This document shows, piece by piece, positions 492 to 63,261 of a DNA stretch of 64,000 bases. The stretch's first letter is position 1. Each line of letters opens with the position of its first letter. The position numbers and the translations under genes were made by a program. The notes beneath the pieces were generated by a model. The model had not been told where the DNA came from and did no database searches. It saw nothing but the letters and a program-made list of their open reading frames with translations. Source of the DNA: a virus; the IMG/VR virus record IMGVR_UViG_3300020027_000005, positions 12,483 through 76,482 of that record. One strand, written 5' to 3'.

Positions 492-1013
492 ATGAACGAA
501 TTCGAACTGCACGGCCGGGTTGTCGCACAGGCCTTCTTCCTCGAGCTCGAGAAGATTGCGATGGCCGATCCGATGGACATCGTTCACGGTCTTCGAGCAA
601 ACCAGGCTCTCCGGAGTGCAGCCTCTCCGAGTCTTGTGCAGAAGCTCAAGCCGGGAACGGGGAGCTTCTTCGGGGCCGTGAAGGACAAGGTCCGTCTTCA
701 CTTGAAGGGACGGAATGTTCGGAAGAGTGCGATCAAGGACCTCGATAGCGCTTCCAAGTACACACCGGGGGCGGATGACATCGAGGACAACGCCAACCTC
801 GCCAGGGCTGCTCGAGGTCGGGAAGCCGAACATGAACTTCACGGGAAGCCGGGTGAGTCGAGCTTCTTCGGCGGAAAGAAGAAGAAGGAGCCGGTGAGGG
901 GTCACCGGGCCAGGCTTCGGGACCTCGCCTTCGGTGCGGGAATCGGTGGAGCAGGCGTGATCGGCACCAGCATGTACCTGAAAGGTGGACAGGCTGAGCC
1001 CGGCTACGAGTAA
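492..1013 (+). CDS. Hypothetical virion protein with ELEKIA motif and C-terminal glycine zipper
   Basis: GGAG RBS; AFFLELEKIA near the N-terminus; LAFGAGIGGAGVIG near the C-terminus; TAATG coupling to the next gene. Confidence 0.7.
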   Translation: MNEFELHGRVVAQAFFLELEKIAMADPMDIVHGLRANQALRSAASPSLVQKLKPGTGSFFGAVKDKVRLHLKGRNVRKSAIKDLDSASKYTPGADDIEDNANLARAARGREAEHELHGKPGESSFFGGKKKKEPVRGHRARLRDLAFGAGIGGAGVIGTSMYLKGGQAEPGYE

Positions 1014-1732
1014 TGGAAAAGGCCGAAAAGAAGACGAGGGCGGCCCAAGAGCTCGAACTCTGGCGCGACTGGAAGGCCAACCCTTCTGACGCCACGCTCG
1101 AGCCCTTGATGGCGTCCATGCAAAACGTTGTTCAACAGCGGGTGAACCAGTTTCGTGGAGCTCCCGTTCCACCTGCCGCTGTTCAGGGTTTTGCAAACGT
1201 CCAGCTCAAAAAGGCCTTCCATACCTACAGCCCGGACAAGGGAGCTTCTCTCGCGACCCATGCGAACTGGTACTTGAAGAAGGTCCAGACCTTCGTCATC
1301 AAGCACCAGAACATCGGGAAGATTCCAGACCAGCGAGCGAACAACATCGCCGAGTACCGAGCTGCGAAAGAGGAACTCCGAGAGACGCTGGGGATGGAGC
1401 CAGACGCTCTCTCCTTGTCGGAACATCTCGGCTGGAGTCAGCGAGAGGTCGAGCGGATGGAGGCAGAGCAGAGAAAGGACCTCATCGCTTCCAAGAACCC
1501 AGAAGCTGACCAGCTCGCCGAAACCTACTCGAACCGAGAGAGGGAAGTTCTACGGTACATCCACTACGACCTGACCCCGGATGAGCGCCTGGTCTTCGAG
1601 TACACTCTGGGGTTGTACGGAAAGCCGCAGATCTCGGCCACCGAGATTTCGAGAAGGATGAGTATCTCTCTTCCGAAGGTCAGCCGAATTCGAGCGAAGA
1701 TCGACAAGAAGCTTCGTGCCCGGGGTGTGTAG
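1013..1732 (+). CDS. Phage sigma70-family sigma factor (group-3/FliA-SigF-like, regions 2-3-4)
   Basis: Region 2 KAFHTYSPDKGASLATHANWYL; region 3 EELRETLGMEPDALSLSEHLGWSQREV; region 4 HTH LTPDERLVFEYTLGL...SATEISRRMSISLPKVSRIRAKIDKKLR. Confidence 0.85.
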   Translation: MEKAEKKTRAAQELELWRDWKANPSDATLEPLMASMQNVVQQRVNQFRGAPVPPAAVQGFANVQLKKAFHTYSPDKGASLATHANWYLKKVQTFVIKHQNIGKIPDQRANNIAEYRAAKEELRETLGMEPDALSLSEHLGWSQREVERMEAEQRKDLIASKNPEADQLAETYSNREREVLRYIHYDLTPDERLVFEYTLGLYGKPQISATEISRRMSISLPKVSRIRAKIDKKLRARGV

Positions 1733-11500: not shown

Positions 11501-14104
11501 ATGGCAACGGACGCAACTCTTCAGGAGCTGGCCCTCGAGCTGATGGCTGACTTCGACTCGACCATCGACACGTCGGAAGGCTCTCCATTTCGCACGAAGT
11601 TCCTGACCCCCTTCCTCACCCGGGTGGGTGGGAATCCTCTCGATGGAGACCTGGAGACCTTCCTCGTTTCGCGTCTCGAGACCGAGATTCCGAGCATCGA
11701 TGTGTCCCCGCTTGCGGGTATGCGAGACCTCGTCATCCGAGCGTGTACGGCCATCCTGGCTCCGTTCCGTCGGGAGATCTCGGCTCTCAAGCTGACCCAG
11801 AGTCTCTCGAAGTACCAGAGCATGACGAGGGCCGAGCTCAACGCCCTCCTTGCAAACTTCTTCACCGAGCTTCGGGAAGGGTCGGTCTCTGTGGGCATCG
11901 TCCGGATGCTCTTTCCCTCTCCCCGGTCGGTGACGGTGACTCCGCTCACCCAGTTCTCGACGGGGACGGGTCTGAACTTCTTCCCACAGACCGCCCAGTC
12001 GCTGACCTCGGTGCAGATGTCCTTCAACCAAGACGGAAGCCTGTTCTTCATGGACATCCTCGTCCAGGCGGAGAGTCCAGGAGAGGCCTACAACCTGGAG
12101 CCTGACTCCATCACTTCGGTGATCGGAATCAACGGGGTCACCAGGGTCACGAATCTCGGGAAATTCGAGGACGGTCTCTCGGAAGAGACGAAGGACGAGG
12201 GCGTCGCCCGGACTCAGAACTCCATTACAATCCGGAACCTGATCACCGACCGCGGCGTAAAGTTCGTTCTTCCCGAGAACTTCCCTGCGGTCGAAACCCT
12301 CCAGGTGATCGGGCATGGTGATCCTGAAATGGACCGGGACGTGGTCTACGGGCCTGTCGCCATTTCCGACATTCCAGGAGGTATCACCGGAAAGGACGAC
12401 CCCGGTCTCGGCGGAGGGGAGCAGATCCACATCGGAGGTAAGACCGACATCTACGTCTACCAGGCCGTTCCGGATCAGGATGACGTAGATATCGAAGACC
12501 TCACCGACAAGGGGTTCCGGATCTTCGCAGGAGTCCATGGCTATACAGATGCCGGTTCTCCCACGACAACGTTCAAGGATGATTTCGGGTTCTTCGACAA
12601 GCGAGGAGTTGCAGCAGGTGATTTCCTTCTCCTCGACAACCTCGTCAACGAGGTCGTGACTGTCGGAACATCAAACCTCGAGGTGATCGATCCTCTCGAC
12701 GCTTCGCAATTCGGAAAGGTCTACGAGATCATCCGGAAGGTTCCAGGCTTCCTGACCGTCCCCCTCTACGACCTGGTTGCAGAGGACGCTGATGGGAACC
12801 CGGTCATCGATGCGGACGACGACCCGATCTGTCCGATCCCCGGTTCCACTACCAAGGTCCCCCTCGTCCTCTCTTCGGTCGAGGTCAAGAAGTCCACAGT
12901 CGACTGGTCGAGCATCGCCAGGTCGAATGTGAAGCTTCCGCTCCTGCGGGTGGTGTCTGTCGAGCGGTTGGACCCGATCACCCTCGAAGGTTCGGCCCTC
13001 TTCATTCCCATGAGAGACCCGATCTTGGCTGTGGTCATTGGCGACGATTTCGCAGGTGGAACCGTCAGTACGAAAGCCCAGGGAACCATCAGGGTCTACT
13101 TCCGAGATCCGGTGAACGCCTGGGTAACAAGAGCGGACACCCGGTTCCTGAGCGCGGAGACTTTCAGCTTCCGTCCCATCACCGAGGTGTCGGGCACGGA
13201 CCACACCAGCACAGCCTCTGGAACTTCGGGAGGGAACACCATTACCCTTACGAATGGGAACTTCTCGGCAGCGGGTCTCGACGTCTTCCGTCCTGGATAC
13301 CGCATCGAGATTCCGAGTGGAGCCGGTGCCGGGACCTACACCGTTGTCTCCGGGGTGTTTTCCACTCCGAATACCATTCTCACCATTCGAGAAGATCTCC
13401 CGGCTACCTTCTCCTTGGCGAACTGGGGTGCGCACGTTGGCCGACTCGAGTCTACGGACCAGCTCGACGAGACCCTGGGGCTCTCGTACCTGGACGTGGA
13501 AGTCGAAGCGATGGTCAACGGCACGAACATGAACTTGGCTGAAGACACTCCGTTCCCAGACATCGTCTCTCTGGATTCGGAGGGCTGGTCTCTCGAAACG
13601 ACGAAGAACGTCACCTCTTTCTCGACTCGAGAGCTTCCCTACATCCAGTTCACGGAGTGGGTGAGTGACGATCTGTTCCTCGGCGATCCGCTCGACGCAC
13701 CCGCAGTCCGTGTCTCCTACGAACATGCCAGCACTCTGAAGGATCTGCAGACTTTCGCGGATGCTGCAGCAAACCGAATCGTCGCCGAGGAAGTTCTGAT
13801 TCGGCACTACCTCCCGGCCTACGTCCGGACAGTTGCAGTCATTGGTGGAATCTCGGTGGAGGACAGCAAGGAGAGAGTCGTCGAGTTCATCAACGCTCTC
13901 GATCCACTCGTTGAACTCCAGGTCTCGGACGTGATCGGCGACCTCACCAAGGCGGGTGTCACGAGCGTCGAGCTTCCTTTGTTCCTCGTGTCTTTGGCCC
14001 AGGACTCGTTTCGAAACTGGACCGGACTCATCAGCCAGAACACTCTCGGATCCAACAGGATTCAACACTTCATCGCGGACGAGTCCGCAATCGTCATCTC
14101 CTAG
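11501..14104 (+). CDS. Baseplate J-like (gp6-like) wedge protein
   Basis: REGSVSVGIVRM; VQAESPGEAYNL...VTNLGKFEDGLSEETKDE; GGKTDIYV. Confidence 0.75.
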   Translation: MATDATLQELALELMADFDSTIDTSEGSPFRTKFLTPFLTRVGGNPLDGDLETFLVSRLETEIPSIDVSPLAGMRDLVIRACTAILAPFRREISALKLTQSLSKYQSMTRAELNALLANFFTELREGSVSVGIVRMLFPSPRSVTVTPLTQFSTGTGLNFFPQTAQSLTSVQMSFNQDGSLFFMDILVQAESPGEAYNLEPDSITSVIGINGVTRVTNLGKFEDGLSEETKDEGVARTQNSITIRNLITDRGVKFVLPENFPAVETLQVIGHGDPEMDRDVVYGPVAISDIPGGITGKDDPGLGGGEQIHIGGKTDIYVYQAVPDQDDVDIEDLTDKGFRIFAGVHGYTDAGSPTTTFKDDFGFFDKRGVAAGDFLLLDNLVNEVVTVGTSNLEVIDPLDASQFGKVYEIIRKVPGFLTVPLYDLVAEDADGNPVIDADDDPICPIPGSTTKVPLVLSSVEVKKSTVDWSSIARSNVKLPLLRVVSVERLDPITLEGSALFIPMRDPILAVVIGDDFAGGTVSTKAQGTIRVYFRDPVNAWVTRADTRFLSAETFSFRPITEVSGTDHTSTASGTSGGNTITLTNGNFSAAGLDVFRPGYRIEIPSGAGAGTYTVVSGVFSTPNTILTIREDLPATFSLANWGAHVGRLESTDQLDETLGLSYLDVEVEAMVNGTNMNLAEDTPFPDIVSLDSEGWSLETTKNVTSFSTRELPYIQFTEWVSDDLFLGDPLDAPAVRVSYEHASTLKDLQTFADAAANRIVAEEVLIRHYLPAYVRTVAVIGGISVEDSKERVVEFINALDPLVELQVSDVIGDLTKAGVTSVELPLFLVSLAQDSFRNWTGLISQNTLGSNRIQHFIADESAIVIS

Positions 14105-42182: not shown

Positions 42183-42851
42183 GTGCCTGAGCCTCTTGTT
42201 CGCAGAGCCGGTCTTCTCGAAGACGAACAGGGTCTGCACCTCATCACTCTGAGTGTGCTTCTGCTCGATCTACTCGGGCCGGAGTACTTGTTCTGGACTT
42301 CTGAGGCGCTCCGAGAAGAGCTCCAGGAGAGGTACGGGAAAATCGGCGTCGTGACCTGGGAGCGGGTTCAGGCACTCCGAATTCTCCACGTCCATGACGC
42401 CTACTGGCAGGAGTGGGAAGTCTTCGAGAAGGTCACGGCTGCCATCTGTGGAGAGCCTCCGATCTTCAGCCTGGTTCAGCCACAGGAAGCAGAGGAAGTG
42501 TTCATCTCTCTGTCGACGGCTTCGCGAATCGACCAGCATGACTTCGACGAAGATGTTCGGAGCTACATGGTGGCGGCGTGCCTGAACGACGGGCTCTGGT
42601 ATTTCGAAGAGCCCGTCGCAGCGGTCGGAAGTTCGGAGCTCGTGGAGTTGGACACTCGACAGGGGATTCAGAGACCATTCGGGCTCATCTCGGCAGAACT
42701 CGAAAAGTCCAACAAGTTCCGTCCGGAGTCAGACGACCCTGTGCTCACCCAAGTGAATCGGGTTCTAGAGGTGCGGCAGGCGCTTCGACTGTACAATGAG
42801 GCGGTCGATAGGCAGCTGCTCCAGCTCCCACAACTGCTGAAGGGTGTTTGA
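42183..42851 (+). CDS. Hypothetical protein in the head module
   Basis: TGATG coupling to the portal gene. Confidence 0.65.
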   Translation: MPEPLVRRAGLLEDEQGLHLITLSVLLLDLLGPEYLFWTSEALREELQERYGKIGVVTWERVQALRILHVHDAYWQEWEVFEKVTAAICGEPPIFSLVQPQEAEEVFISLSTASRIDQHDFDEDVRSYMVAACLNDGLWYFEEPVAAVGSSELVELDTRQGIQRPFGLISAELEKSNKFRPESDDPVLTQVNRVLEVRQALRLYNEAVDRQLLQLPQLLKGV

Positions 42852-44764
42852 TGGCGGGCATTGGGACAACTGGATTCGGACCCGGAAGCGCTTCCCGGTT
42901 TTCGAACAACCAGTCGACAACAGGGAACAACGTTCGATACCCGTCCCCCTGGTGGGACATTTCGAACATGGACCTTCCGAGGTCCGTGAAGCACCTCTTC
43001 AAGTGGTGCCTCTACCATGTTCTCGTGAATCCACTCGTTGCTCCAGTTGTTCGGAAGATGGCGGCCTACCCCATCACCGAAATCATCATCGAGGACGAGC
43101 CGCACGAAGGCTTCCAGAAGCACAAGGAGCGGTGGGAAGACTGCCTCTTCAAGACCCTGAACATCGACCAGTTTCAGCTGGAGATCGGGCTCGACTACCA
43201 CGGCTACGGGAATGCCCTGGTCTCGCTGCTCACTCCGTTCCACAAGGTTCTGACCTGCACCCACTGCAAGTACGAGGAGCGGATCAAAAAGCTGAAGTTC
43301 GGTGAGGTGTGGGACTTCAAAGAGTTCAAGTTCATCCTGCACTGTCCAAAATGCAAGATGAGTGCGACCGCGAAGGTCGACGATGTATCGTACAGGTCTT
43401 TCCGGGACTTGAAGATCATCCGATGGAACCCGGCAGACATCGACATTGATTTCAACCCGATCACTCGAGTGGCCGAGTACGCGTACAACATTCCGGAACG
43501 GGTGAAGACCAAAATCCTCCGGAAGAACAAGCGCTACTTGGAAGAGATTCCACAGGTCATCTTTCAGGCCATGAAGGAGCAGCGAGCTGTCCTTCTGAAC
43601 CCAGACAACCTGTACCACTTCAAGGCCCCGACTCCGTCTCTGCCGTCGAGTGACGAAGGGTGGGGCTACCCGCCGATCCTTCCGGCATTGAAGGACTCGT
43701 TCTACTTGCAGCAGATGAAGAAGGCGCAGGAGATGGTGCTTCTCGAGCACATGCTCCCACTCGACATCTTCTTCCCGGCTTCAGCCGACGCGAATGCGAA
43801 TCCCTATCAGATGATCAACCTCCACGACTGGAAGCAGCGGGTGGAGGCGGAGATCACTCGCTGGAAATGGGACCCGAACTACAAGCCCATCATGCCCATT
43901 CCCGTCGGGCATCAGCGAATCGGAGGGAACGGAAAGGCCCTCATGCTCACCCAGGAGATTCGAGCCTGGTCCGAGCACATCATCGCTGGCATGGGAGTTC
44001 CTCAGGAATTCGCTTTCGGTGGTCTGACCTGGTCCGGGTCCAGCGTCTCTCTCCGGATGCTCGAGAACCAGTTCTCGAACTACCGGTCGATGCATGAGAA
44101 TTTCCTGCAGAACTGGCTCATCCCCAGGATCGCCAACTACATGGCGTGGTCTGAAATCTCCATCCATCTCCGTGACTTCAAGATGGCCGACGACATGCAG
44201 CTCAAGCAGCTGCTGATCACGTTGAACCAGATGAAGAAGATCTCCGACAAGACCCTCCTCGCCGAGTTCGGGCGTGATGCGCTCGAAGAGTCGAAGCTGA
44301 TGGAGCAGGAGATGCAGCGCCAGATGCAGATGCAGCGGACGCAGATGATGTACACGACCCAGATCCAGGTCGAAGCTTCGGCGATCCAGATGAAGGGCCA
44401 GATGAAGATGCAGGAACAGCAGATGAAGGCCCAGCAGAAGGCGATGGGTGGCCAGGCTGTGGATCCGCAGACTGGAATGCCGATGCAGGGTGCCCAGGGC
44501 GGAGGAGTTCCAGGCACTCCGGCGCAGGGTCCGCAGGGTGGACAGGAAGGCCAGAGCGTCGATGTACGTCAACTCGCAGAGGCGTACGGGAAAAAACTGG
44601 CGAACATGCCTCCAGAGCAGGCAGCCCCGATCCTCCATCGGATGTCCCAGGAGAATCCGCAGCTCCATATGCTCGTGATGCAGGCCATGCAGACGAACAC
44701 GACTGCGGACATGCGCCCTCTGCCGGAACAGCGCCCTCCGACACGAGAGACGGGACTGGTCTAG
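42851..44764 (+). CDS. Portal protein with inserted zinc ribbon and Gln/Met-rich C-terminus
   Basis: NPLVAPVVRKMA; DYHGYGNALV; IRWNP; LYHFK...GWGYPPILPAL; IIAGMGVP; CTHC...CPKC insert. Confidence 0.7.
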   Translation: MAGIGTTGFGPGSASRFSNNQSTTGNNVRYPSPWWDISNMDLPRSVKHLFKWCLYHVLVNPLVAPVVRKMAAYPITEIIIEDEPHEGFQKHKERWEDCLFKTLNIDQFQLEIGLDYHGYGNALVSLLTPFHKVLTCTHCKYEERIKKLKFGEVWDFKEFKFILHCPKCKMSATAKVDDVSYRSFRDLKIIRWNPADIDIDFNPITRVAEYAYNIPERVKTKILRKNKRYLEEIPQVIFQAMKEQRAVLLNPDNLYHFKAPTPSLPSSDEGWGYPPILPALKDSFYLQQMKKAQEMVLLEHMLPLDIFFPASADANANPYQMINLHDWKQRVEAEITRWKWDPNYKPIMPIPVGHQRIGGNGKALMLTQEIRAWSEHIIAGMGVPQEFAFGGLTWSGSSVSLRMLENQFSNYRSMHENFLQNWLIPRIANYMAWSEISIHLRDFKMADDMQLKQLLITLNQMKKISDKTLLAEFGRDALEESKLMEQEMQRQMQMQRTQMMYTTQIQVEASAIQMKGQMKMQEQQMKAQQKAMGGQAVDPQTGMPMQGAQGGGVPGTPAQGPQGGQEGQSVDVRQLAEAYGKKLANMPPEQAAPILHRMSQENPQLHMLVMQAMQTNTTADMRPLPEQRPPTRETGLV

Positions 44765-44801: not shown

Positions 44802-44885
44802 CTACTCTTCCTCTTCAGCCCTTGCGGTAGCGAGGGACAGCAGGAAGCCGTTCAACACACCTAGGAGAACACACCACCACCACAT
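44802..44885 (-). CDS. 27-aa hydrophobic peptide MWWWCVLLGVLNGFLLSLATARAEEEE
   Basis: TGATG coupling to the upstream small ORF. Confidence 0.35.
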   Translation of the reverse strand: MWWWCVLLGVLNGFLLSLATARAEEEE

Positions 44886-45049
44886 CAGGCGGGGTCCGGA
44901 GTGCTGTCCTCGCTCTTTCCACGATCGTCAGCGTCATCATCGACGCTCCAGAGCGACTCCCGCAGTCTTTGGTCGACCACGGACTGCCCTTGAGTAGTCT
45001 CCTCCTCTTCCTGTTCCCGCTTCTTCTTCCTCTTCTCTTCCTCGGTCAT
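44885..45049 (-). CDS. 54-aa highly charged protein
   Basis: GGAG RBS; downstream of GCGCATAAG (45087-45095); MTEEEKRKKKREQEEEE... Confidence 0.5.
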   Translation of the reverse strand: MTEEEKRKKKREQEEEETTQGQSVVDQRLRESLWSVDDDADDRGKSEDSTPDPA

Positions 45050-45127
45050 CGATTCTCCAGAAGCCGACATTGTTGGCTCCAACATTCTTATGCGCGATAG
45101 ACTTGGGCAGCTTTCGTAGGATGGACG

Positions 45128-48100
45128 ATGTCGAACTTGAGCCCGGAAATGCAGTTCGAGTCGCTGAAGTCCAGCCTCTCCGGGACCCTGAAGGGAATGT
45201 TTCCCATCGAGACGAGGGGTGGGAATTCCATCGTCCTCGAAGAAGTGGAGTTCAAGGACGAGAAGGGCAGCGGAGACCTTCGGGAGCAGCAGAAAGCTCT
45301 CCGTGAGGCCAAGAGCTGGTCCATTCCGGTCTACGGAACCTTCAGCACGAAGAACAAGAACGGAACGGAGACCGATCGGAAGCGCGTTCTGATGATGCAC
45401 CTGCCTCGTACGACTGATCGTTTCGGGTACATCGTCGATGGGAACGAGTACCAGATCCTCAACCAGTTTCGACTGAAGTCTGGTGTGTACCACCGGATGG
45501 CTCCAGACGGAGATGCGCTCGCAGAGTTCAATCTCGCGAACTCGGACCAGTTCGCAAACGGAAAGAGCTTCAAGCTCAGATTGGTTCCGAAGACTGCGGT
45601 CTTCTACGTCGACCACCGCAATTCGAGTGTCCCGCTCTACCCCCTTCTCAAGTCTGTCGGAGTGACCGACGAAGATCTCGAGAAGGCGTGGGGAAAGGAA
45701 ATCCTCGAACGGAACCAGGCGAAGGGAGCAGAAGCTCGGTCGTTCGGAGCCCTCCGTCGGGCTGTGGGTGCAGAGCTCCCCGGCGTAGATGGCTCCGAAC
45801 TTTTCGGGAAGCTGCTGGCCAAGACGAAACTCCTTCCGGAGACCACGGAGAAGACTCTCGGAAAGGCCTACGCGTCCGTGACTCCGGAGTTGTTGGCCCA
45901 GAGCACGAAGCAACTCCTGGAACTCTCTCGTGGAGCTCGGGCCGAGGACGATAAGACCTCTCTCGAATACCAGGGGATGTACTCGGCGAACGACCTGCTC
46001 TCTGGCCATCTCCAGAGGAAGGCAGGTCTGATCAAAAGGAAGATTCAGACGAACCTGGAGAAGAAGAAGGGTGTTCGGTTGATCGTGCCGACGGACACGT
46101 TTGACCAGGCTCTTCGGTCCTTCTTCTCCACTTCCCTGGTCTCGCAGCCCGAGCAGACGAATCCTCTCGAGATGCTCTCTGGAGCACTCAAGACGACGAT
46201 CATGGGGGAGCAGGGAGGCATCAAATCCAGCTTCGCGATCTCCGAGAATGCGAAGCTCGTGAACCCTTCTCACCTGGGATTTCTGGACCCGATCCACACG
46301 CCAGAAGGTGAAAAGACAGGCGTGTCTCTTGCGCTGCCTCTCGGGGCTGGAAAGCGAGGGAACGAGATCGTCTCCACCTTCTGGAATGCGAAGACCAAGA
46401 AGCGGCAGGAGATCTCTGCTGGAGAGGCACTCCACGCCACCGTGGCTTTCCCGGACCAGTACGTTCAGAAGGGTTCGGGGATGTCTCCGGTCGCTCCGAA
46501 GGTGAAGGCGACGAAGGACGGGAACATCGTCTACGTCAGCCATCGGGAGGTCGACTACGTCATCCCGAGTCCGCGAGCAGTATTCGGAGTCTCCTCGAAC
46601 CTGATCCCGTTCTTGCAGAACAACCAGGGCAACCGAGCGATGACAGCAGCTCGGCAGCAGGAACAAGCAGTTCCTCTTCTCTACCGTGAGGAGCCTCTGG
46701 TCCAGGTGAAGACCGACGGAAAGGCGACCTTCGAGGAGATCCTCGGAGAGAGCTCTGCTCGGAACTCCCCTGTGGATGGGGAGATTCTTCGTGTTGAGAG
46801 AGACGCCATCATCATCAAGGACAGCAAGGGCGAGAAGCACGAGATTCAGTTCTACAAGGACTTCGCGCTCAAAGGGAACACCCTCTACGACTCCGACGTG
46901 AAGGTGAAGGCCGGAGACAAGGTGAAGAAGGGAGACCTTCTCGCCGACACGACGTTCACGAAGAATGGGAAGCTCGCTCTCGGTACCAATCTTCGAACTG
47001 CCTACATGGCGTTCAACGGGTACAACTTCGAGGATGGCATCGTTATTTCTGAGGACGCTGCCAAAAAGCTCACAAGCCTACATGTCCATCAGAAAGACAT
47101 CCCGTTCGACACGGACACTGTGCTCGACAAGAAGAAGTTCCTCTCGCAGTACCAGTATGGGTTCGGGAAGGAGCAGCTCGAAAATGTGGGCGAGGACGGA
47201 GTCATCAAGGTCGGCTCCCGCGTGAAGGAAGGAGATCCTCTCCTCCTGGCTCTGAGGAAGCCGAACGAGTCGCAGCTCCGCAAGCAGATCATGGCCTTCC
47301 GGCGAGGGCGTCCCGACAAGTTCCGGGACGGCTCACTGGCTTGGGACCACGAGGCTCCCGGCATCGTCACGGACGTGGTGAAGCGGGGAGACCAGGTCGT
47401 GGTCTACGTGAAGACCGAGGAGCCTGCGCAGGTAGGTGACAAGCTTGTAGGGCGGCACGGGAACAAGGGAATCATCACGCGAGTGGTTCCGCAAGCAGAG
47501 ATGCCCTACTCCACGGACGCGAAGGGCGAGAAGCAGCACGTCGATATCCTCATGAACCCCCTTGGGGTCCCCGGGCGTATCAACCTCGGCCAGATCCTGG
47601 AGACGGCTGCTGGGAAGATCGCCACAAAGACCGGGAAGACCTACGAAGTCAAGAACTTCGAACACGGGAAGGACTACCTCACCGACATCAAGGCAGACCT
47701 GAAGAAGAACGGGCTCTCGGATAAGGAAGCCCTCTTCGATCCGACGACCGGAAAGCACTTCGAACAGGAAGTGATGACCGGGAATCAGTACATCTTGAAG
47801 CTGAAGCACATGGCTACGAAGAAGATCTCCGCCCGCTCGGGCTCGGGCGGTGAGGGATCCTTCTACGACGTGAACCATGCCCCGAGTTCGGGAGCCCCTC
47901 ACGGTGGACAGGCCATGGACCCGCTCGGGCTCTACGCCCTGTTGGCTCACGGAGCTCGCGAGAATATCTCGGAGATGTACACCTACAAGTCGGACAAGAA
48001 CGACGCCTTCTGGGACGCTATCCGGGAAGGGGCACCGATTCCGCCCCCGAAGACGCCGTTCGTGTACGACAAGTTTCTCAAGTATATGAACGCGCTTCGC

Positions 48101-51100
48101 GTGGATGTGAAGAAGGAAGGGAACTCTCTTCAGCTGATGCCGTTCACCGAACAGCAGGTTCTGGAGATGAGCTCTGGCGAATTGAAGGAACCCTCCCTCG
48201 TGGTTCGAGGAAAGGACCTGAAGCCTCTGCCCGGAGGTTTGTTCGACGAGAAGCTCACCGGCGGAAAGGAGGGAACCCGGTGGACGCACTTCAAGCTCGC
48301 CGAGCCTATGCCGAACCCGATGTTCGAAGAGGCGATCAAGAAGTTGACTGGACTCTCTGACAACCAGTTCAGGAGCCATATCCGGGGCGATGTCGAGGTC
48401 AACGGTAAGAAGGGAGGTGAGGCGGTCGAAGAGCTTCTCAAGCGCATCAACGTGAAGAAGCTGCGAGAGGACCTCGAGTCGAAGATCGGAAAGGCCAAAG
48501 GTGCTGGTCGAGACAAGCTCCACCAGCAGTTGAGAATCGTGAAAGCCTTGGACGAGGCCAAGCTCTCCCCCACGGTCTACATGATGCGGAGTGTTCCGAT
48601 CCTGCCTCCGATCTTCCGACCGGTTTCGGCGAAGCCGGATGGTTCACTCTCGTCTGACGATCTCAACGGCCTGTACAAGGACATCGGGGCCGTGAATGAG
48701 TCGCTGACTCTTCTGAAGTCGTCCGACATTCCGCAGTCGATCGTGGCGCCCACTCGGATGGAGCTCTACGATGGGCTCCGGGCCATGACCGGACTCGGTG
48801 GCTCCCTGACTCGGGAGTACCGCGGAATCCTGGATATCATCTCTGGGAAAACACGCAAAGGCGAGTCGGCCGGTGAAGGATCCAGCAAGGGTGGGTTCTT
48901 CCAAAAGTCCGTGATGAAGCGCCGTCAGGACTTCTCGGCTCGATCCATCATTACTCCCGAGCCCCGTATGGGAATCGACGAGATCGGTCTCCCGCAGGAG
49001 ATCGCCTGGACGATGTACCAGCCCTTCATCGAGAAGGAGCTCATTCGTCAGGGCTACAAGCCGCCGGACGCTATCGATGAGGTTCGGAAGCGGACTCTGG
49101 TTGCGGAGAAGGCGCTCTTCAGAGCAGTCGAAGACAGACCCGTTCTTCTGAAGCGTGACCCGGTTCTTCACAAGTTCAACGTGATGGCGTTCAAGCCGAG
49201 ACTCGTGAAGGGAAAGGCAATCGAAATCCACCCCCTCGTCACCGGTGGGTTCAACGCCGACTTCGACGGCGACACCATGTCGGTCTTCCTTCCGGTCACC
49301 TCTCCAGCAGTGAAGGAGGCCCAGAACCTCTACCCGTCGAACAACCTCTTCAGCCCGACCACGGGCGCGGTCATGTACACGCCCGGTCACGAGGCCCTGC
49401 TCGGTACCTACCTGCTCTCCCTTCCCGGGAAGAAGACTGGAAAACGCTTCAAGAACACCGAAGACGCCCAGTCTGCTCTTCGGAAGGGAGAGCTCAAAAA
49501 GACTGACATCGTTCGAATCGGTGGGCACGAGACCACTCTCGGCCGACTGGAGATCGAGGCGAAGCTTCCAGCCTGGCTCCAGGAGACAGGGAAGAAGCCG
49601 GTTTCTGAGATGCGGATCTACGACAACAAGACCACCAAGGGCTTGTTGATGCAGGTCGCGAAGCGGGACCATCTCAAGTACGGGGAGATTGCGAACCACC
49701 TGAAGGACATCGGAAACGAGAACTCGACGAGAACCGGATTCTCGATCGGACTCTCGGACTTCGATGTTGTGAATAAGGTGGGTCGAGACAAGATCATCGC
49801 GGCTGCAGAAAAGCAGCAGGTGAAGATCAACAGCTCGAAGCTCTCTGTGCAGAAGAAGGAGGAGAAGGTCGTCGAGGTTCTGACGAAGGCGAAGGACCAG
49901 CTCGAGGACCTCTACAACGCAGGCCTCAAGAAGGACCCGACGAACATCTACAAGATGATGATCTCTGGTTCTCGGGTGAGTCCCGGACAGTTGAAGCAGA
50001 TCGTCTCTTCGCCTGCCCTGGTCTCGGATTCGAAAAACAGAATGGTGCCATATATTATCCCCAGGTCGTACTCCGAGGGGATGGACATGGCGTCGTACTG
50101 GACGACCATGCACGGCGCTCGGAAAGGCGCACTTCAGAAGACCCAGGAGGTCTCGAAGCCTGGCGCACTCTCGAAGCTCCTCGTGAACTCGACCATCAAC
50201 CAGCTGGTGACCGAGGAGGACTGTCGAGCCGGGGACGGGATCACGATGTCGGTCGACAACCACGACGTGGCCGACCGCTACCTGGCTGCACCCGCTCGAT
50301 TCGGAGGAAAGCGAATTCGGGCTGGAGAGCTGATCACTCCGGAGCTCCTGGCCCAGGCCCGAAAGGCCCAGGTCAAGACGCTTACGGTTCGAAGCCCTCT
50401 TCGGTGCCAGGCAGAGCATGGTGTCTGCAGACACTGCATGGGTCTGACGGAGGGAGGGAAGAGCTACGACATCGGAACGAACATCGGGGTCATCGCCGCA
50501 CAGGCCGTAGGTGAGCCTAGCACCCAGCTCTCACTGTCGGCATTCCACACTGGAGGAACTGTTGGTTCCCGCGGTTCGCAAGCAGTTTCGACCTTCGGCC
50601 GGTTGAGCCAACTCCTCACCGTTCCTCGGAACATTCCGAACGAGGGGGCTCTGGCGCTTCATGCAGGGAAGGTCACGAGCATCGAGGATGCTCCGCAGGG
50701 CGGCCAGTACGTCTACATCAACAAGACCCAGCACTACGCCCCTGCGACACAGAAGCTCCAGATCAAAAAGTTCGACACCGTGAAGGCTGGGGATGAGCTC
50801 ACCGACGGAGTCACTGATCCGAAGAAGCTCCTGGCTCTTCGGGGTGTTCGGGACACGCAGGACTACCTGACGAGGTCGATGATGGAGGTGCTTTCGGAAG
50901 TAGCACCGGTGAAGCAGCGCAATGTGGAAGTCGTCGTTAGGTCGATGACTGATATCGCCACGGTCGAGGATCCGGGCGGGCATCCGGACTGGACCTCTGG
51001 AGATGTTCGGCCGGTTTCCATCATCGCTGCATGGAATGCGAAACATCGAGGCAAGGGGAAGCCGGTCAAGTACTCCACTCTCGTGAAGGGCGTGGACGTT

Positions 51101-51298
51101 CTTCCGAATGAGATGCAGGAGGATTGGATCGCTCGACTCAACTTCCAGAACCTCTCTCGAACTCTGACCCAGGCTTCTCGAGAGGGGTGGCACGCCAACA
51201 TCCACGGCTTCAATCCCATTCCGGCCGCAGCACAAGGTGCAGAGTTCAACAGAGCAGAGCGGAAACTCAAGCCGGGGGAACATAAAGGCCAGTACTGA
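45128..51298 (+). CDS. Single-chain fused beta-beta' DNA-directed RNA polymerase (bacterial type, 2056 aa)
   Basis: Beta motifs: GFLDPIHTPEG, IPFLQNNQGNRAM, GYNFEDGIVISE, GDKLVGRHGNKG, NPLGVPGRINLGQILE, YILKLKH. Beta' motifs: VPILPPIFRP, DFSARSII, NADFDGD (49253-49273), HGARKG, CQAEHGVCRHCMG, GEPSTQLSLSAFHTGG. Confidence 0.97.
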   Translation: MSNLSPEMQFESLKSSLSGTLKGMFPIETRGGNSIVLEEVEFKDEKGSGDLREQQKALREAKSWSIPVYGTFSTKNKNGTETDRKRVLMMHLPRTTDRFGYIVDGNEYQILNQFRLKSGVYHRMAPDGDALAEFNLANSDQFANGKSFKLRLVPKTAVFYVDHRNSSVPLYPLLKSVGVTDEDLEKAWGKEILERNQAKGAEARSFGALRRAVGAELPGVDGSELFGKLLAKTKLLPETTEKTLGKAYASVTPELLAQSTKQLLELSRGARAEDDKTSLEYQGMYSANDLLSGHLQRKAGLIKRKIQTNLEKKKGVRLIVPTDTFDQALRSFFSTSLVSQPEQTNPLEMLSGALKTTIMGEQGGIKSSFAISENAKLVNPSHLGFLDPIHTPEGEKTGVSLALPLGAGKRGNEIVSTFWNAKTKKRQEISAGEALHATVAFPDQYVQKGSGMSPVAPKVKATKDGNIVYVSHREVDYVIPSPRAVFGVSSNLIPFLQNNQGNRAMTAARQQEQAVPLLYREEPLVQVKTDGKATFEEILGESSARNSPVDGEILRVERDAIIIKDSKGEKHEIQFYKDFALKGNTLYDSDVKVKAGDKVKKGDLLADTTFTKNGKLALGTNLRTAYMAFNGYNFEDGIVISEDAAKKLTSLHVHQKDIPFDTDTVLDKKKFLSQYQYGFGKEQLENVGEDGVIKVGSRVKEGDPLLLALRKPNESQLRKQIMAFRRGRPDKFRDGSLAWDHEAPGIVTDVVKRGDQVVVYVKTEEPAQVGDKLVGRHGNKGIITRVVPQAEMPYSTDAKGEKQHVDILMNPLGVPGRINLGQILETAAGKIATKTGKTYEVKNFEHGKDYLTDIKADLKKNGLSDKEALFDPTTGKHFEQEVMTGNQYILKLKHMATKKISARSGSGGEGSFYDVNHAPSSGAPHGGQAMDPLGLYALLAHGARENISEMYTYKSDKNDAFWDAIREGAPIPPPKTPFVYDKFLKYMNALRVDVKKEGNSLQLMPFTEQQVLEMSSGELKEPSLVVRGKDLKPLPGGLFDEKLTGGKEGTRWTHFKLAEPMPNPMFEEAIKKLTGLSDNQFRSHIRGDVEVNGKKGGEAVEELLKRINVKKLREDLESKIGKAKGAGRDKLHQQLRIVKALDEAKLSPTVYMMRSVPILPPIFRPVSAKPDGSLSSDDLNGLYKDIGAVNESLTLLKSSDIPQSIVAPTRMELYDGLRAMTGLGGSLTREYRGILDIISGKTRKGESAGEGSSKGGFFQKSVMKRRQDFSARSIITPEPRMGIDEIGLPQEIAWTMYQPFIEKELIRQGYKPPDAIDEVRKRTLVAEKALFRAVEDRPVLLKRDPVLHKFNVMAFKPRLVKGKAIEIHPLVTGGFNADFDGDTMSVFLPVTSPAVKEAQNLYPSNNLFSPTTGAVMYTPGHEALLGTYLLSLPGKKTGKRFKNTEDAQSALRKGELKKTDIVRIGGHETTLGRLEIEAKLPAWLQETGKKPVSEMRIYDNKTTKGLLMQVAKRDHLKYGEIANHLKDIGNENSTRTGFSIGLSDFDVVNKVGRDKIIAAAEKQQVKINSSKLSVQKKEEKVVEVLTKAKDQLEDLYNAGLKKDPTNIYKMMISGSRVSPGQLKQIVSSPALVSDSKNRMVPYIIPRSYSEGMDMASYWTTMHGARKGALQKTQEVSKPGALSKLLVNSTINQLVTEEDCRAGDGITMSVDNHDVADRYLAAPARFGGKRIRAGELITPELLAQARKAQVKTLTVRSPLRCQAEHGVCRHCMGLTEGGKSYDIGTNIGVIAAQAVGEPSTQLSLSAFHTGGTVGSRGSQAVSTFGRLSQLLTVPRNIPNEGALALHAGKVTSIEDAPQGGQYVYINKTQHYAPATQKLQIKKFDTVKAGDELTDGVTDPKKLLALRGVRDTQDYLTRSMMEVLSEVAPVKQRNVEVVVRSMTDIATVEDPGGHPDWTSGDVRPVSIIAAWNAKHRGKGKPVKYSTLVKGVDVLPNEMQEDWIARLNFQNLSRTLTQASREGWHANIHGFNPIPAAAQGAEFNRAERKLKPGEHKGQY

Positions 51299-51307: not shown

Positions 51308-52222
51308 ATGCCCCCTCGTCCGTCCCTGTTCATCGATCCGAACACGGCTTCCGCAGCTGCAGCCAAGGCCCTCAAACCTACAGATCCGCACGGTGCTGCC
51401 TGCATCGAGGTCATCTCGAGGAGGCCCGTAGCAACGTGGCTCGGGTCGTGGCTCACCGATGTCACGAAGACTGTCGACGACAGGATCGACGCAGCCGGAA
51501 GCGCCCTCTGCACTTTCGTGGTCTACAACATTCCCCAGAAAGACTGTGGGAACTTCTCAAGCGCACACGCAGCTGCGAACGAGTACGAGTACTCGAAGTG
51601 GATCGCGAAGATCGCTCTGGGGATTGCAGGTCGACCCTGCGTCGTTGTCATCGAACCCGACGGGTTGTCGGTCACTCACTGTCTCGACGGAGCGAAGCTT
51701 CAGGCTCGGATGGGTGCCATCGCTTCGGCTGCGAGTGTTCTCGCAGGTGCAGGAGCCCGGGTCTTCATCGACGCCGGCTGCTACAACTGGATTCCAGCTT
51801 CCACGATGGCTTCTCGTCTCGCCTCTTCTGGCATCCAGGCGGCCATTGCTTCGAAGGGTGGTTTCGCTTTGAATGTCTCGCACTTCGAGACGACCGAGAA
51901 CAGCCACACCTACGCAGCCGAGCTTCGAACTCTCATTCCGCTCGCCAAGTACATCGTCGATACGAGTCGAAACGGTCTCGGCCCTTCGGACGTAATGACC
52001 CCGGACGGAGAGGAGCCGGAGTGGTGCAATCCTCCCGGAAGAGCTTTGGGCCTCGCACCGACGCTCGTGACCCGAGAGGGAGGCTGTTACGCCTACATGT
52101 GGGTGAAAACCCCCGGCAGCTCAGATGGATCGAGGCCTGCTGGGGCTCCTGAGGCCGGGGACTACTGGTCTGAGTACGCTATCGGCTTGGTGGAGCGTAG
52201 CCACCTTGCCCCGAAATCGTGA
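51308..52222 (+). CDS. Glycoside hydrolase family 6 (endoglucanase-like), no signal peptide
   Basis: VYNIPQKDC; IEPD; IDAG; NVS; VDTSRNG; WCNPPGRALG; WVKTPGSSDG. Confidence 0.9.
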   Translation: MPPRPSLFIDPNTASAAAAKALKPTDPHGAACIEVISRRPVATWLGSWLTDVTKTVDDRIDAAGSALCTFVVYNIPQKDCGNFSSAHAAANEYEYSKWIAKIALGIAGRPCVVVIEPDGLSVTHCLDGAKLQARMGAIASAASVLAGAGARVFIDAGCYNWIPASTMASRLASSGIQAAIASKGGFALNVSHFETTENSHTYAAELRTLIPLAKYIVDTSRNGLGPSDVMTPDGEEPEWCNPPGRALGLAPTLVTREGGCYAYMWVKTPGSSDGSRPAGAPEAGDYWSEYAIGLVERSHLAPKS

Positions 52223-62557: not shown

Positions 62558-62633
62558 AGCGTCGTAGCTCAGTTGGTTGAGCATCGAACTCACACTTCGA
62601 AGGTCGCTGGTTCGAATCCAGTCAACGCTGCCA
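62558..62633 (+). tRNA. tRNA with CAC anticodon (nominally Val), encoded CCA
   Basis: Cloverleaf AGCGTCG/CAACGCT, D stem GCTC/GAGC, anticodon arm TCGAA-CTCACAC-TTCGA, T loop TTCGAAT. Confidence 0.8.
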
Positions 62634-62710
62634 AAAGCAACTCGGAATCACTCCTCGGTCGGCACTCTTTTCCATCTCTGATTTATTCGCGAATCTCTCG
62701 CCCACTCCGT

Positions 62711-62787
62711 GGTGCCTACACGCAGCTCGATGGTCGAGCGTCCGCCTTGTAAGCAGAAAGTTGTTGGTTCAATTCCAACCGTGACCC
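62711..62787 (+). tRNA. Aberrant or pseudo tRNA-Thr(TGT)
   Basis: D, anticodon (CTTGTAA) and T arms present; acceptor stem pairs fully only if a 5-nt bulge (GCCTA) is allowed. Confidence 0.5.
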
Positions 62788-62831
62788 GAAAGGGTTTCCG
62801 GCTTCACATCTCGGGCGAGAGAATCACTTTT

Positions 62832-62957
62832 GAGGGAGTAAGCCGACGGTCAGGCACTTGAAATGGACTCAAGATCCCCGCTCATCCACTCGCCTCTTCC
62901 GAGAGGCACAGCGATGTGCGTACAAGCACCAGAGGTTCGACTCCTCGCTCCCTCACC
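62832..62957 (+). ncRNA. tRNA-like RNA with a roughly 55-nt expansion between the D and T arms
   Basis: Acceptor GAGGGAG/CTCCCTC-ACC, D arm GCC/GGC, T arm GAGG-TTCGACT-CCTC. Confidence 0.6.
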
Positions 62958-62964
62958 CTCCTTC

Positions 62965-63056
62965 GGGGTTTTCGTCCAACGTCAGGACACCGGTCTGAAT
63001 ATCGTCTTCGGACGAGGCTAAACCGGGACGGAAGTTCAACTCTTTCAGACCCCACC
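62965..63056 (+). ncRNA. tRNA-like RNA with a 27-nt anticodon loop containing a UUCG hairpin
   Basis: GGGGTTT/AGACCCC-ACC; GTCC/GGAC; CCGGT/ACCGG; GGAAG-TTCAACT-CTTTC. Confidence 0.65.
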
Positions 63057-63062
63057 TTTCCC

Positions 63063-63135
63063 GGCCCCGTAGCTCAGTAGGTAGAGCACTGCGTTGAAGG
63101 CGCGGCAGCGTCAGTTCGATTCTGACCGGTGGCCA
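63063..63135 (+). tRNA. tRNA-Phe(GAA)
   Basis: CTGCG-TTGAAGG-CGCGG; standard D and T arms; one bulged T in the acceptor stem. Confidence 0.8.
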
Positions 63136-63140
63136 TCAGT

Positions 63141-63214: not shown

Positions 63215-63261
63215 CCTCTCCCGGTTTCTCGAATTCTGGAAGTTCTGAATCCAGGAACTGA

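What the first reader, a model, noticed from the sequence alone, without database searches (positions are those of the whole stretch)
45128..51298. Seamless beta-beta' fusion, minimised to 2056 aa
The beta C-terminal motif (PFVYDKFLKYMNALRVDV; E. coli PESFNVLLKEIRSLGINI) runs through KKEGNS directly into the beta' N-terminal motif (LQLMPFTEQQVLEMSSGE; E. coli IALASPDMIRSWSFGE) at about 48060-48180. The halves are about 1000 and 1055 aa, against 1342 and 1407 in E. coli. NADFDGD, the GDK..GRHGNKG lysines and the trigger-loop His are intact, so the enzyme looks active. Cellular fusions (Helicobacter, Wolbachia) are not shrunk like this.
Basis: partly seen in the sequence, partly recalled or inferred. 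Interest (0 to 1): 0.85.

Follow-up and report, generated by a model that had tools for sequence, protein, structure and literature searches.

The report
Single-chain phage RNA polymerase with sigma
An uncultured large phage encodes both big subunits of a bacterial-type RNA polymerase as one compact 2056-residue protein, has its own sigma factor but no alpha or omega subunit, and belongs to a large phage family, undescribed in the papers I could search, that probably carries the enzyme in the virus particle to start its own transcription.

Summary
ORF 45128-51298 (+) is one 2056-aa frame in which complete beta (residues 1-~998) runs into complete beta' (~1000-2056) through a conserved, gap-free junction modelled as a beta-hairpin. 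The window is part of a phage record: portal directly upstream, baseplate and helicase genes, tRNAs.

At least 119 other protein clusters of similar size share the fusion. On two trees they form one clade outside all 23 sampled bacteria. The closest cultured relatives, Salmonella phage Arash and Vibrio phages D69/D148/D181 (~30% identity), keep the junction but split beta' at ~1465; that split is secondary.

A sigma gene (1013-1732) co-occurs in 5 of 5 near-complete relatives. No alpha or omega was found in those five; alpha was also absent from the Arash and D69 genomes. In Arash virions the RNAP pieces and sigma were detected by mass spectrometry.

"Minimised" is overstated: 466 of the 693 residues missing relative to E. 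coli are E. coli-specific inserts. Real core losses are the beta' zinc ribbon, a shorter rudder and altered omega-binding and rifampicin-pocket regions. A Paceibacterota MAG also has a compact fusion.

This scan met the family before in other genomes. Sigma binding, packaging and alpha-independence remain inferred. Read coverage could not be checked.

The parts
45128..51298 (+). Single-chain beta-beta' RNA polymerase gene, 2056 aa
   Evidence: ORF list and translation. Pfam Rpb2 then Rpb1 domains. PDB phmmer to bacterial beta' E 1e-105 and beta E 1e-91. AF2 models with pLDDT 82, and Foldseek TM 0.75 (beta) and 0.82 (beta') to bacterial subunits. AGGA ribosome-binding site 9 nt upstream of the ATG.
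45128..48121 (+). beta module (residues 1-998), with lobes, Rif-pocket equivalent, flap and active-site lysines
   Evidence: Residues 19-995 align to Thermus beta 46-1100 of 1119. The model of residues 1-1020 has pLDDT about 90 over the first 350 residues and superposes on full-length cyanobacterial beta 9dvs_C.
48101..48142 (+). Junction VDVKKEGNSLQLMP (residues 992-1005): two strands with a turn at E997-G998-N999
   Evidence: Gap-free and conserved in 39 homologues; G998 and P1005 invariant. Both AF2 models place strands at about 992-997 and 1000-1005. pLDDT is 72-79 in the beta' half model and about 47-59 in the beta half model.
48125..51295 (+). beta' module (residues 1000-2056)
   Evidence: Alignment starts at residue ~1002 against C. 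difficile beta' residue 11. Foldseek TM 0.82/0.78 to C. thermocellum beta' 8i24_D.
48233..48295 (+). Site where the beta' N-terminal zinc ribbon is missing (GGLFDEKLTGGKEGTRWTHFK)
   Evidence: E. coli beta' 64-88 (C70, C72, C85, C88) has no counterpart. The same short TGGxxGT loop is present in all 39 family members.
48653..48805 (+). beta' clamp helices (residues 1176-1226), the usual docking site of sigma region 2: full length but diverged in sequence
   Evidence: Alignment to E. coli beta' 262-312 without length change, with most residues different. Helices are modelled there.
49253..49273 (+). Catalytic NADFDGD (residues 1376-1382)
   Evidence: A1377 to D1382 are invariant in the family alignment.
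47435..47470 (+). beta active-site motif GDKLVGRHGNKG (residues 770-781)
   Evidence: G770, D771, K772, G775, R776, N779 and K780 are invariant; H777, G778 and G781 are nearly invariant.
50216..50443 (+). Retained second zinc site (C1699, C1760, C1767, C1770), the only four cysteines in the protein
   Evidence: They align to E. coli beta' C814, C888, C895 and C898. Cysteine count.
50468..50641 (+). Trigger loop (residues 1781-1838) with His1807 and without the E. coli SI3 insert
   Evidence: Alignment to E. coli beta' 910-945 and 1129-1152.
1013..1732 (+). Phage sigma-70-family factor (239 aa), the inferred partner of the RNAP
   Evidence: Pfam Sigma70_r3 E 3e-5 and r4 E 4e-3, both below Pfam's own cut-offs. 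Weak PDB matches to RpoS, RpoH and RpoD. 26% identity, E 3e-23, to Arash Gp10, the sigma detected in virions. Homologues in 5 of 5 near-complete relatives. 75 homologues, several on the same contigs as RNAP homologues.
42848..44764 (+). Portal protein gene, directly upstream and co-oriented with the RNAP gene
   Evidence: 30% identity over 584 aligned positions, E 1e-93, to Arash portal Gp204. The same portal-then-RNAP order is found in Arash and D69.
11501..14104 (+). Baseplate wedge-like virion gene downstream of sigma; shows that sigma lies in the virion module
   Evidence: phrog_6 baseplate wedge, E 6e-11. Homologue of Arash structural protein Gp13.
45087..45093 (-). One of eight minus-strand GCATAAG sites: candidate phage promoter element
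   Evidence: 8 matches against 1.39 expected; 0 of 100 shuffles reach 8; all on the minus strand. Six of them lie 18-84 nt upstream of minus-strand gene starts. No clear second upstream element was seen.

Best explanation
The gene encodes the catalytic core of a phage's own bacterial-type RNA polymerase as a single chain. Complete beta is joined to complete beta' by a tight hairpin that covalently closes what are two chain ends in bacteria (shown). The fusion is ancestral to a large, old phage clade that lies outside all sampled bacteria (shown). The enzyme most likely works as a two-polypeptide holoenzyme with the phage's own sigma factor (window 1013-1732) and without alpha or omega; the fusion would then replace the assembly scaffold that the alpha dimer gives bacterial enzymes (inferred). 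It is most likely made late with the virion genes, packed into the particle and delivered with the DNA. There it would start transcription from phage-specific promoters, for which the minus-strand GCATAAG sites upstream of replication-type genes are candidates, independently of the host enzyme and probably insensitive to rifampicin (inferred from the cultured relative Arash, gene position, cysteine depletion and pocket substitutions). My estimates: real active-type fused RNAP 0.97; works with the phage sigma 0.7; virion-packaged 0.6; needs no host alpha 0.55.
For: Identity and integrity. Junction conserved and gap-free in 39 homologues, and modelled as a hairpin. Clade-wide fusion: 119 other clusters of about 2030-2100 aa, or longer with inserts, at 41-73% identity, and more than 250 related viral contigs. 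Not host-derived: the best of about 185,000 prokaryotic species reach only 26-30% identity, all as ordinary rpoB plus rpoC. FastTree and IQ-TREE both put the bacteria on one side (support 100) and the fused phage clade on the other (100 and 99), with the Arash-type split nested inside. Sigma: homologous to Arash Gp10, present in 5 of 5 near-complete relatives, and found on the same contigs with parallel divergence. No alpha (PF01000, PF01193) and no omega above cut-off in five near-complete relatives; no alpha in the complete Arash and D69 genomes; controls positive in 14 of 14 genomes. One RNAP per genome. The region that binds omega in bacteria lacks KENVIVG. Packaging: in Arash virion mass spectrometry Gp206 gave the most spectra (3516), with Gp216 at 1210 and sigma Gp10 at 467 (PMC10585845). 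The portal-RNAP synteny and sigma's place in the baseplate module are conserved. The RNAP has only 4 Cys (0.19%) and sigma none, like the virion genes (0.28%) and unlike the replication genes (1.18%). In use: intein-sized inserts sit in catalytic motifs of relatives. Promoter candidate. Rif pocket D516E, H526G, S531T in E. coli numbering.
Against: No experiment exists for this phage. Virion packaging rests on one distant relative (~30% identity), whose authors caution that abundant proteins may be carried over into particle preparations. Absence of alpha and omega rests on profile searches; a very divergent or unrelated scaffold protein, or use of host alpha, would not be seen. Nothing here shows that this sigma binds the phage core rather than the host core. 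The flap tip and clamp helices are diverged, which fits a private interface but proves nothing. The window's own record is only about 44% complete, so a second RNAP or sigma in this particular phage is excluded only by analogy with complete relatives. No bipartite promoter architecture was seen around GCATAAG. The trees are unrooted.
Confidence: 0.6

Rival explanations
1. The fused protein is only a beta-beta' core that recruits the host's alpha dimer (and perhaps omega) after infection. It would then be a hybrid phage-host enzyme, not a self-sufficient one.
For: The overall beta and beta' architecture is fully bacterial (TM 0.75-0.82), so alpha-binding surfaces could be retained. No phage substitute for alpha was identified.
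Against: A packaged enzyme would have to work before or without assembling with host alpha. The omega-binding region is altered. The phiKZ and AR9 enzymes show that phage multisubunit RNAPs can work without alpha (PMC7598289). Fusion of beta to beta' removes the main assembly role of alpha (inference).
Confidence: 0.25
2. The enzyme is a non-virion polymerase: it is made during infection for middle or late genes and is not delivered with the DNA. Early genes are read by the host enzyme.
For: There is only one RNAP per genome, whereas phiKZ-like phages need two sets to combine packaging with later transcription. The Arash authors allow that mass-spectrometric detection could be carry-over.
Against: Gp206 gave the most spectra of any protein in Arash particles, more than the major capsid protein. 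The gene lies beside the portal and is co-oriented with the virion genes in distant relatives. The RNAP and sigma share the cysteine depletion of the particle proteins.
Confidence: 0.2
3. The phage sigma redirects the host RNA polymerase, as T4-like and other large phages do, and the fused enzyme uses some other, unrecognised specificity factor.
For: Phage sigma factors that hijack the host core are common in large phages that lack their own RNAP (PMC7824862). Binding of the sigma to the phage core has not been shown.
Against: Sigma and the fused RNAP co-occur in 5 of 5 near-complete relatives and in Arash, and diverge in parallel. Both were found in Arash virions. The sigma is far from cellular sigmas (best PDB E 2e-4), and the clamp helices are equally diverged.
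Confidence: 0.12
4. The chain is cut at the junction after translation, for example by a prohead protease, so the working enzyme has separate beta and beta'.
For: Many proteins of large phage particles are processed. The junction contains a conserved acidic residue followed by Gly.
Against: The residue before Gly is E in only 22 of 39 members; Q, D and N together account for 11 more. The position three before it is K, R or V, so there is no fixed protease motif. The junction is modelled as a structured hairpin, not an exposed linker.
Confidence: 0.05
5. The ORF is an assembly or binning artefact, or host DNA in a viral contig.
For: Read coverage could not be checked.
Against: Over a hundred independent assemblies give the same gap-free junction. 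The gene's G+C equals that of the surrounding phage genes. It is flanked by the portal gene and other phage genes. No cellular genome holds a close relative.
Confidence: 0.01

Closest known systems
RNA polymerase of Salmonella phage Arash (Gp206 + Gp216, with sigma Gp10; PMC10585845) and of Vibrio phages D69, D148 and D181
   Same: They share the beta-beta' junction inside one ORF (query residues 25-1465), a homologous sigma, the portal-then-RNAP gene order and absence of alpha. They fall in the same clade on both trees. In Arash these proteins were detected in virions.
   Different: Identity is only about 30%. Their beta' is split at about residue 1465 into a separate gene of about 600 aa, which in Arash lies 5 kb away; here the chain is unbroken. 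The split is secondary on the trees. The Arash paper annotates Gp206 simply as 'subunit beta' and does not mention the fusion.
Cellular RpoBC fusions of Helicobacter and Wolinella (PMC1557499); Wolbachia by my own knowledge
   Same: The C-terminus of beta is fused head-to-tail to the N-terminus of beta'.
   Different: Those are about 2900 aa and are ordinary members of their bacterial lineage. By established knowledge they work with alpha2 and omega and keep the zinc ribbon. The phage protein is 2056 aa, lies outside all bacteria on the trees, and comes without alpha or omega genes.
Fused rpoBC of a Candidatus Paceibacterota (CPR) MAG, locus L102 (DATJQA010000074.1)
   Same: A compact single ORF (at most 2284 aa) with a short linker between beta and beta'.
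   Different: It groups with other CPR bacteria, keeps the zinc ribbon and bacterial clamp helices, and has 13 cysteines in the aligned segment. It is therefore an independent fusion.
phiKZ / AR9 virion and non-virion multisubunit RNAPs of jumbo phages (PMC7598289, PMC7824862)
   Same: They are phage-encoded relatives of beta and beta', work without alpha and omega, and one set is packed in the virion for early transcription.
   Different: There beta and beta' are each split into two or three polypeptides and are very divergent. There are two enzyme sets per genome and no sigma-family factor; specificity comes from gp68 or gp226. Here there is one unbroken chain, one set, clear similarity to bacterial subunits (E 1e-105) and a sigma-70-family partner.
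Single-chain two-barrel RNAPs: crAss-like phage virion RNAP, the P23-45 tape-measure-fused RNAP, and YonO (10.1101/2020.03.07.982082; PMC10770324)
   Same: Both catalytic barrels lie in one polypeptide; some of these enzymes are packed in virions.
   Different: Those are minimal or highly diverged enzymes related to RNA-dependent RNAP-like two-barrel proteins, without the full beta and beta' domain set. The present protein has every major beta and beta' domain.

Membership tests
Bacterial-type multisubunit RNA polymerase, beta subunit | Rpb2 domain set and beta fold, including lobes, flap and the barrel with the two active-site lysines | tested here: met
   Pfam Rpb2_3 and Rpb2_6 pass the cut-offs; Rpb2_7 is weak. 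GDK..GRHGNKG is intact. The model superposes on full-length cyanobacterial beta with TM 0.75/0.74.
Bacterial-type multisubunit RNA polymerase, beta' subunit | Rpb1 domain set, NADFDGD, bridge helix, trigger loop, lid, rudder and clamp helices | tested here: met
   Pfam Rpb1_2, _4 and _5 pass the cut-offs; _1 and _3 fall below. All named elements are present, with the rudder 11 residues shorter. TM 0.82/0.78 to C. thermocellum beta'.
Bacterial-type multisubunit RNA polymerase, beta' subunit | N-terminal zinc ribbon (four Cys; E. coli C70, C72, C85, C88) | tested here: not met
   It is deleted and replaced by a TGGxxGT loop in all 39 family members.
Bacterial RNA polymerase core (alpha2-beta-beta'-omega) | Alpha dimer and omega encoded with, or assembled into, the enzyme | tested here: not met
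   No PF01000 or PF01193 match, and no PF01192 match above cut-off, in five near-complete relatives. No alpha match in the complete Arash and D69 genomes. Controls were positive in 14 of 14 genomes. Use of host alpha cannot be tested with these tools.
Sigma-dependent holoenzyme | A sigma-70-family factor that binds the clamp helices and flap tip and directs promoter recognition | tested here: inconclusive
   A sigma-70-family gene is present and co-inherited. Binding and promoter recognition are not shown. A strand-specific motif is enriched.
Arash-like phage clade with junction-fused RNAP | beta-beta' junction inside one ORF, homologous sigma, portal gene upstream, and monophyly on an RNAP tree | tested here: met
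Virion (packaged) RNA polymerase | The protein is physically present in purified particles and active on entry | not testable with these tools
   Only indirect evidence: Arash virion mass spectrometry, gene position in the virion module and cysteine depletion like the particle proteins.
phiKZ/AR9-type jumbo-phage RNAP | beta and beta' each split into several polypeptides; two paralogous sets; no sigma | tested here: not met
   One unbroken chain, one set per genome, and a sigma present.

The most novel reading that the evidence does not exclude
This family is a self-sufficient two-polypeptide bacterial-type holoenzyme (single-chain beta-beta' plus a private sigma, with no alpha and no omega). 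It is delivered inside the virion and belongs to an old viral lineage that branches outside all bacterial RNA polymerases rather than being captured from a host. That would make it the smallest natural sigma-dependent multisubunit-type RNA polymerase, and a third design of phage multisubunit RNAP beside the phiKZ/AR9 type and the crAss/YonO type.
Probability: 0.4. Interest if true: 0.85.

Novelty: new variant of a known kind. Interest (0 to 1): 0.7.

Why it matters
Bacterial RNA polymerase is thought to need the alpha dimer as its assembly platform. A natural enzyme that replaces this with a covalent beta-beta' link, and still uses a sigma factor, would show how little is needed for sigma-dependent transcription. 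It would also give a compact two-gene, probably rifampicin-insensitive, orthogonal transcription system for biotechnology.

For phage biology, it adds a widespread third design of phage-encoded multisubunit polymerase: hundreds of variants in marine and other metagenomes, in genomes of about 170-210 kb. It implies that many abundant uncultured phages transcribe at least part of their genome without the host enzyme.

The question is directly testable, because Arash and the Vibrio phages D69, D148 and D181 are in culture.

For evolution, the clade's position outside all sampled bacteria, and its internal depth greater than that of the sampled bacteria, bear on whether viral polymerases descend from cellular ones or from older replicons.

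Tried and rejected
(1) Complex prediction with sigma residues 1-120 against beta' residues 1120-1300, each with its alignment, returned no verdict (score 0.08 against a mark of 0.32).

I tried no other route.

(3) The search for related loci with the single protein found only one viral locus. The family alignment was needed to reach more.

(4) PHROGs gave no hit for most neighbouring genes. The portal was identified only by direct comparison with Arash.

(5) treekit with MAFFT --auto timed out, and one IQ-TREE run with the mixture model never returned. The reported trees are FastTree LG+CAT and IQ-TREE LG+G4 with a short search. No site-heterogeneous or rooted analysis was completed.

(6) I looked for a bipartite, -35-like element upstream of the eight GCATAAG sites and saw none.

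I rejected this because the segment lies just upstream of, and runs into, the stretch that aligns with the N-terminal region of bacterial beta.

(8) Literature searches for a phage rpoB-rpoC fusion found nothing. The library lacks most subscription journals, so this does not prove the design is unpublished.

(9) Alpha-binding surfaces could not be assessed. The tools return no model coordinates, and I did not trust contact residues recalled from memory.

Full report
**1. The observation**

The window holds one open frame at 45128-51298 on the + strand (ATG to TGA, 2056 aa). Pfam finds Rpb2_3 (342-403), Rpb2_6 (587-904, E 4e-66) and a weak Rpb2_7. These are followed in the same frame by Rpb1_1, _2, _3, _4 and _5 (1126-1946). 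Against solved structures, residues 19-995 align to Thermus beta 46-1100 of 1119. The next part begins at residue ~1002 against C. difficile beta' residue 11. So only about 19 tail residues of beta and about 10 head residues of beta' are missing at the join.

**2. Context**

The window is bases 12483-76482 of a 76,482-bp IMG/VR virus record, estimated 44% complete. It holds a single Rpb2_6 match.
- G+C is even at 0.57-0.60 across the window, including the gene.
- The ORF directly upstream (42848-44764) is the portal protein: 30% identity, E 1e-93, to Arash Gp204.
- Upstream on the minus strand lie a helicase, a DnaB-like helicase and a primase.
- 11501-14104 is a baseplate wedge-like gene.
- Three tRNA genes sit at 62558-63216.

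This is a large tailed phage, not host DNA.

**3. The fusion is a trait of a large clade**

A search of 5.8 billion proteins listed, as its best 120 hits, the query and 119 other clusters at 41-73% identity. Nearly all are 2030-2100 aa, and they lie on contigs of up to 199 kb. Some are 2400-2840 aa and carry intein or homing-endonuclease Pfam domains. A scan of IMG/VR with the family alignment found more than 250 related loci, with contigs up to 210 kb.

In 39 aligned members down to 42% identity the junction has no gaps. Its consensus is KKEG-N-x-L-x-L-x-P-F-T-E/D, with G998 and P1005 invariant. Two independent AF2 models (residues 1-1020: pLDDT 82.2, pTM 0.78; residues 960-2056: pLDDT 81.7, pTM 0.71) both place strands at about 992-997 and 1000-1005, with the turn at E997-G998-N999. 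I read this as the last strand of beta and the first strand of beta' closed into a hairpin. Local confidence there is moderate: 72-79 in the beta' half model and lower in the beta half model.

**4. What is kept and what is lost**

An alignment with E. coli rpoB and rpoC (locus L180) shows the following regions missing relative to E. coli:
- beta: 1-26, 226-347, 932-1035 and 1128-1181.
- beta': 11-28, 64-88, 126-159, 555-571, 703-716, 828-837, 945-1130 and 1379-1407.

The four large blocks (466 of 693 residues) coincide with the E. coli lineage-specific inserts (my own knowledge of SI1, SI2, beta In11 and beta' SI3). They are also absent from the other bacteria in the alignment. For comparison, solved cyanobacterial and plastid beta chains are 1070-1100 aa, and the C. 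difficile beta' is 1161 aa. So the enzyme is compact, but only about 10% below the smallest bacterial subunits.

Kept: NADFDGD, GDK..GRHGNKG, the bridge helix, the trigger-loop His, the lid, clamp helices of unchanged length, and the second zinc site.

Lost or remodelled:
- the beta' N-terminal zinc ribbon, in every family member;
- a rudder 11 residues shorter;
- a flap tip with a 3-residue deletion;
- clamp-helix sequence diverged;
- KENVIVG missing from the region that binds omega in bacteria;
- trigger-loop R933 replaced;
- rifampicin-pocket residues D516E, H526G and S531T, plus deletion of F514.

The final Tyr is invariant. Foldseek superposes the halves on full-length bacterial beta (TM 0.75/0.74) and beta' (TM 0.82/0.78). 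So the whole architecture is present, including the N-terminal 250 residues that match only weakly by sequence.

**5. Origin**

Among one genome for each of about 185,000 prokaryotic species, the best matches are 26-30% identical, spread over many phyla, and are ordinary tandem rpoB-rpoC genes. I extracted homologous segments from viral and bacterial loci and built two trees:
- FastTree, 67 rows and 1480 columns.
- IQ-TREE LG+G4, 34 rows and 892 columns.

Both trees agree on four points. All bacteria (13 phyla, including CPR) lie on one side of a branch with support 100. All junction-fused phage enzymes form one clade (100 and 99). The Arash/D69 type, whose beta' is split at about 1465, is nested inside the fully fused forms. 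Deep fused lineages (L035, L023) branch first.

So the fusion is ancestral and the split is secondary. Branch lengths inside the phage clade exceed those among the sampled bacteria. The trees are unrooted and no site-heterogeneous model finished, so I do not claim that the clade is older than Bacteria.

**6. Partners**

ORF 1013-1732 is a 239-aa sigma-70-family protein. Pfam matches r3 at E 3e-5 and r4 at E 4e-3, both below the curated cut-offs. Matches to solved RpoS, RpoH and RpoD are weak. It is 26% identical (E 3e-23) to Arash Gp10, and it lies in the tail/baseplate module, as in Arash.

Homologues occur in 5 of 5 near-complete relatives. Several of its 75 homologues are on the same contigs as RNAP homologues, with parallel divergence.

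In the five near-complete relatives, alpha (PF01000, PF01193) and omega (PF01192, above cut-off) are absent and there is one beta module per genome. Alpha is also absent from the complete Arash and D69 genomes. The same searches scored in 14 of 14 control genomes.

**7. Packaging**

The Arash paper (PMC10585845) reports virion mass spectrometry. Gp206, which I find to be beta fused to the N-terminal part of beta', gave the most spectra of any protein (3516). Gp216 (the C-terminal part of beta') gave 1210 and sigma Gp10 gave 467. The authors suggest a role in early transcription but allow for carry-over. They do not mention a fusion.

In the window, the RNAP has exactly four cysteines, all of them ligands of the retained zinc site, and sigma has none. 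Of 39 family members, 34 have exactly four, four have five and one has none. Cysteine content is 0.19% for the RNAP, against 0.28% for the plus-strand virion genes and 1.18% for the minus-strand replication-type genes; E. coli beta plus beta' has 22 cysteines. This fits a particle protein but does not prove it.

**8. Promoter lead**

GCATAAG occurs 8 times against 1.39 expected (0 of 100 shuffles reach 8), and all copies are on the minus strand. Six lie 18-84 nt upstream of minus-strand gene starts, including the DnaB-like gene and a small ORF between the portal and the RNAP gene. I saw no second upstream element.

**9. Literature and earlier notes**

Two reviews of jumbo-phage RNAPs describe only split, sigma-less enzymes. 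They state that phages with sigma factors lack an RNAP of their own. Searches for phage rpoB-rpoC fusions found nothing. The Helicobacter and Wolinella fusion is about 2900 aa.

This scan has met the family before in other genomes, and other follow-up agents read it similarly. I treat those notes as leads only. I had reached the Arash link, the sigma link and the clade structure from my own calls before reading them.

**10. Verdict**

- Shown: a real, conserved, single-chain and complete beta-beta' enzyme of a large phage clade that lies outside the sampled bacteria, with a co-inherited sigma and no detectable alpha or omega gene.
- Inferred: that it binds that sigma, needs no host alpha, is packed in the virion and reads GCATAAG-type promoters.
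- Not done: read coverage, any binding evidence, and rooting of the tree.

Noticed in passing
L102:163-7014 (Candidatus Paceibacterota MAG, DATJQA010000074.1): A CPR bacterium has rpoB and rpoC fused in one ORF of at most 2284 aa, with a short linker and the zinc ribbon kept. On both trees it groups with other CPR bacteria, so it is an independent and unusually compact cellular fusion.
   Followed up: partly
Relatives L015, L018, L025, L031, L038, L041, L047; proteins P0010, P0032-P0034, P0065, P0093, P0099, P0102, P0106, P0107, P0118: Intein-sized inserts (about 340-520 aa; some carry LAGLIDADG or intein Pfam domains) interrupt the RNAP at six or more catalytic sites: TPEG (~394), GDK/GRHGNKG (772-784), NPLGVPGR (812-816), ~945-954, NADFDGD (1381-1382) and the trigger loop FH|TGG (1803-1807). 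Some proteins carry two.
   Followed up: partly
L046-L060 (IMG/VR contigs up to 255 kb): A second family of viral RNAPs has separate beta (~1010 aa ORF) and beta' (~900 aa ORF) genes, 25-29% identical to the query. It forms its own clade, next to bacteria in the midpoint-rooted trees.
   Followed up: no
window 51308-52222 (+): The gene immediately downstream of the RNAP gene is a glycosyl hydrolase family 6 (cellulase-type) protein (Pfam E 4e-44). It is cysteine-rich (2.6%), unlike its neighbours.
   Followed up: no
window 44883-45050 (-): A small ORF of about 55 codons, rich in charged residues, lies on the minus strand between the portal and RNAP genes, with a GCATAAG site 37 nt upstream of its ATG. 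Arash and D69 instead have a small plus-strand gene there that overlaps the RNAP start.
   Followed up: no
window, all long ORFs: Cysteine content separates the two gene sets: plus-strand virion-module genes 0.28% (15 of 5347 residues), minus-strand replication-type genes 1.18% (53 of 4488).
   Followed up: partly
window 51293-51295 (Tyr2056): The very last residue of the RNAP is an invariant Tyr in all 39 family members (G-x-Y end), although the preceding tail varies. This suggests a specific docking role.
   Followed up: no
L040 / G004 (IMGVR_UViG_3300035698_022190, 210 kb): In this relative the RNAP is in three ORF pieces (query 50-186, 233-1450 and 1470-2042), and a second weak sigma-like match exists. 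Extra splits, introns or frameshifts were not resolved.
   Followed up: no
window 49505-49543 (residues 1460-1472): The secondary split of beta' in the Arash/D69 subclade falls at a point where the window protein lacks 17 residues relative to E. coli beta' 555-571. From memory, this may be near the natural split of cyanobacterial and plastid beta'. I did not test that.
   Followed up: no
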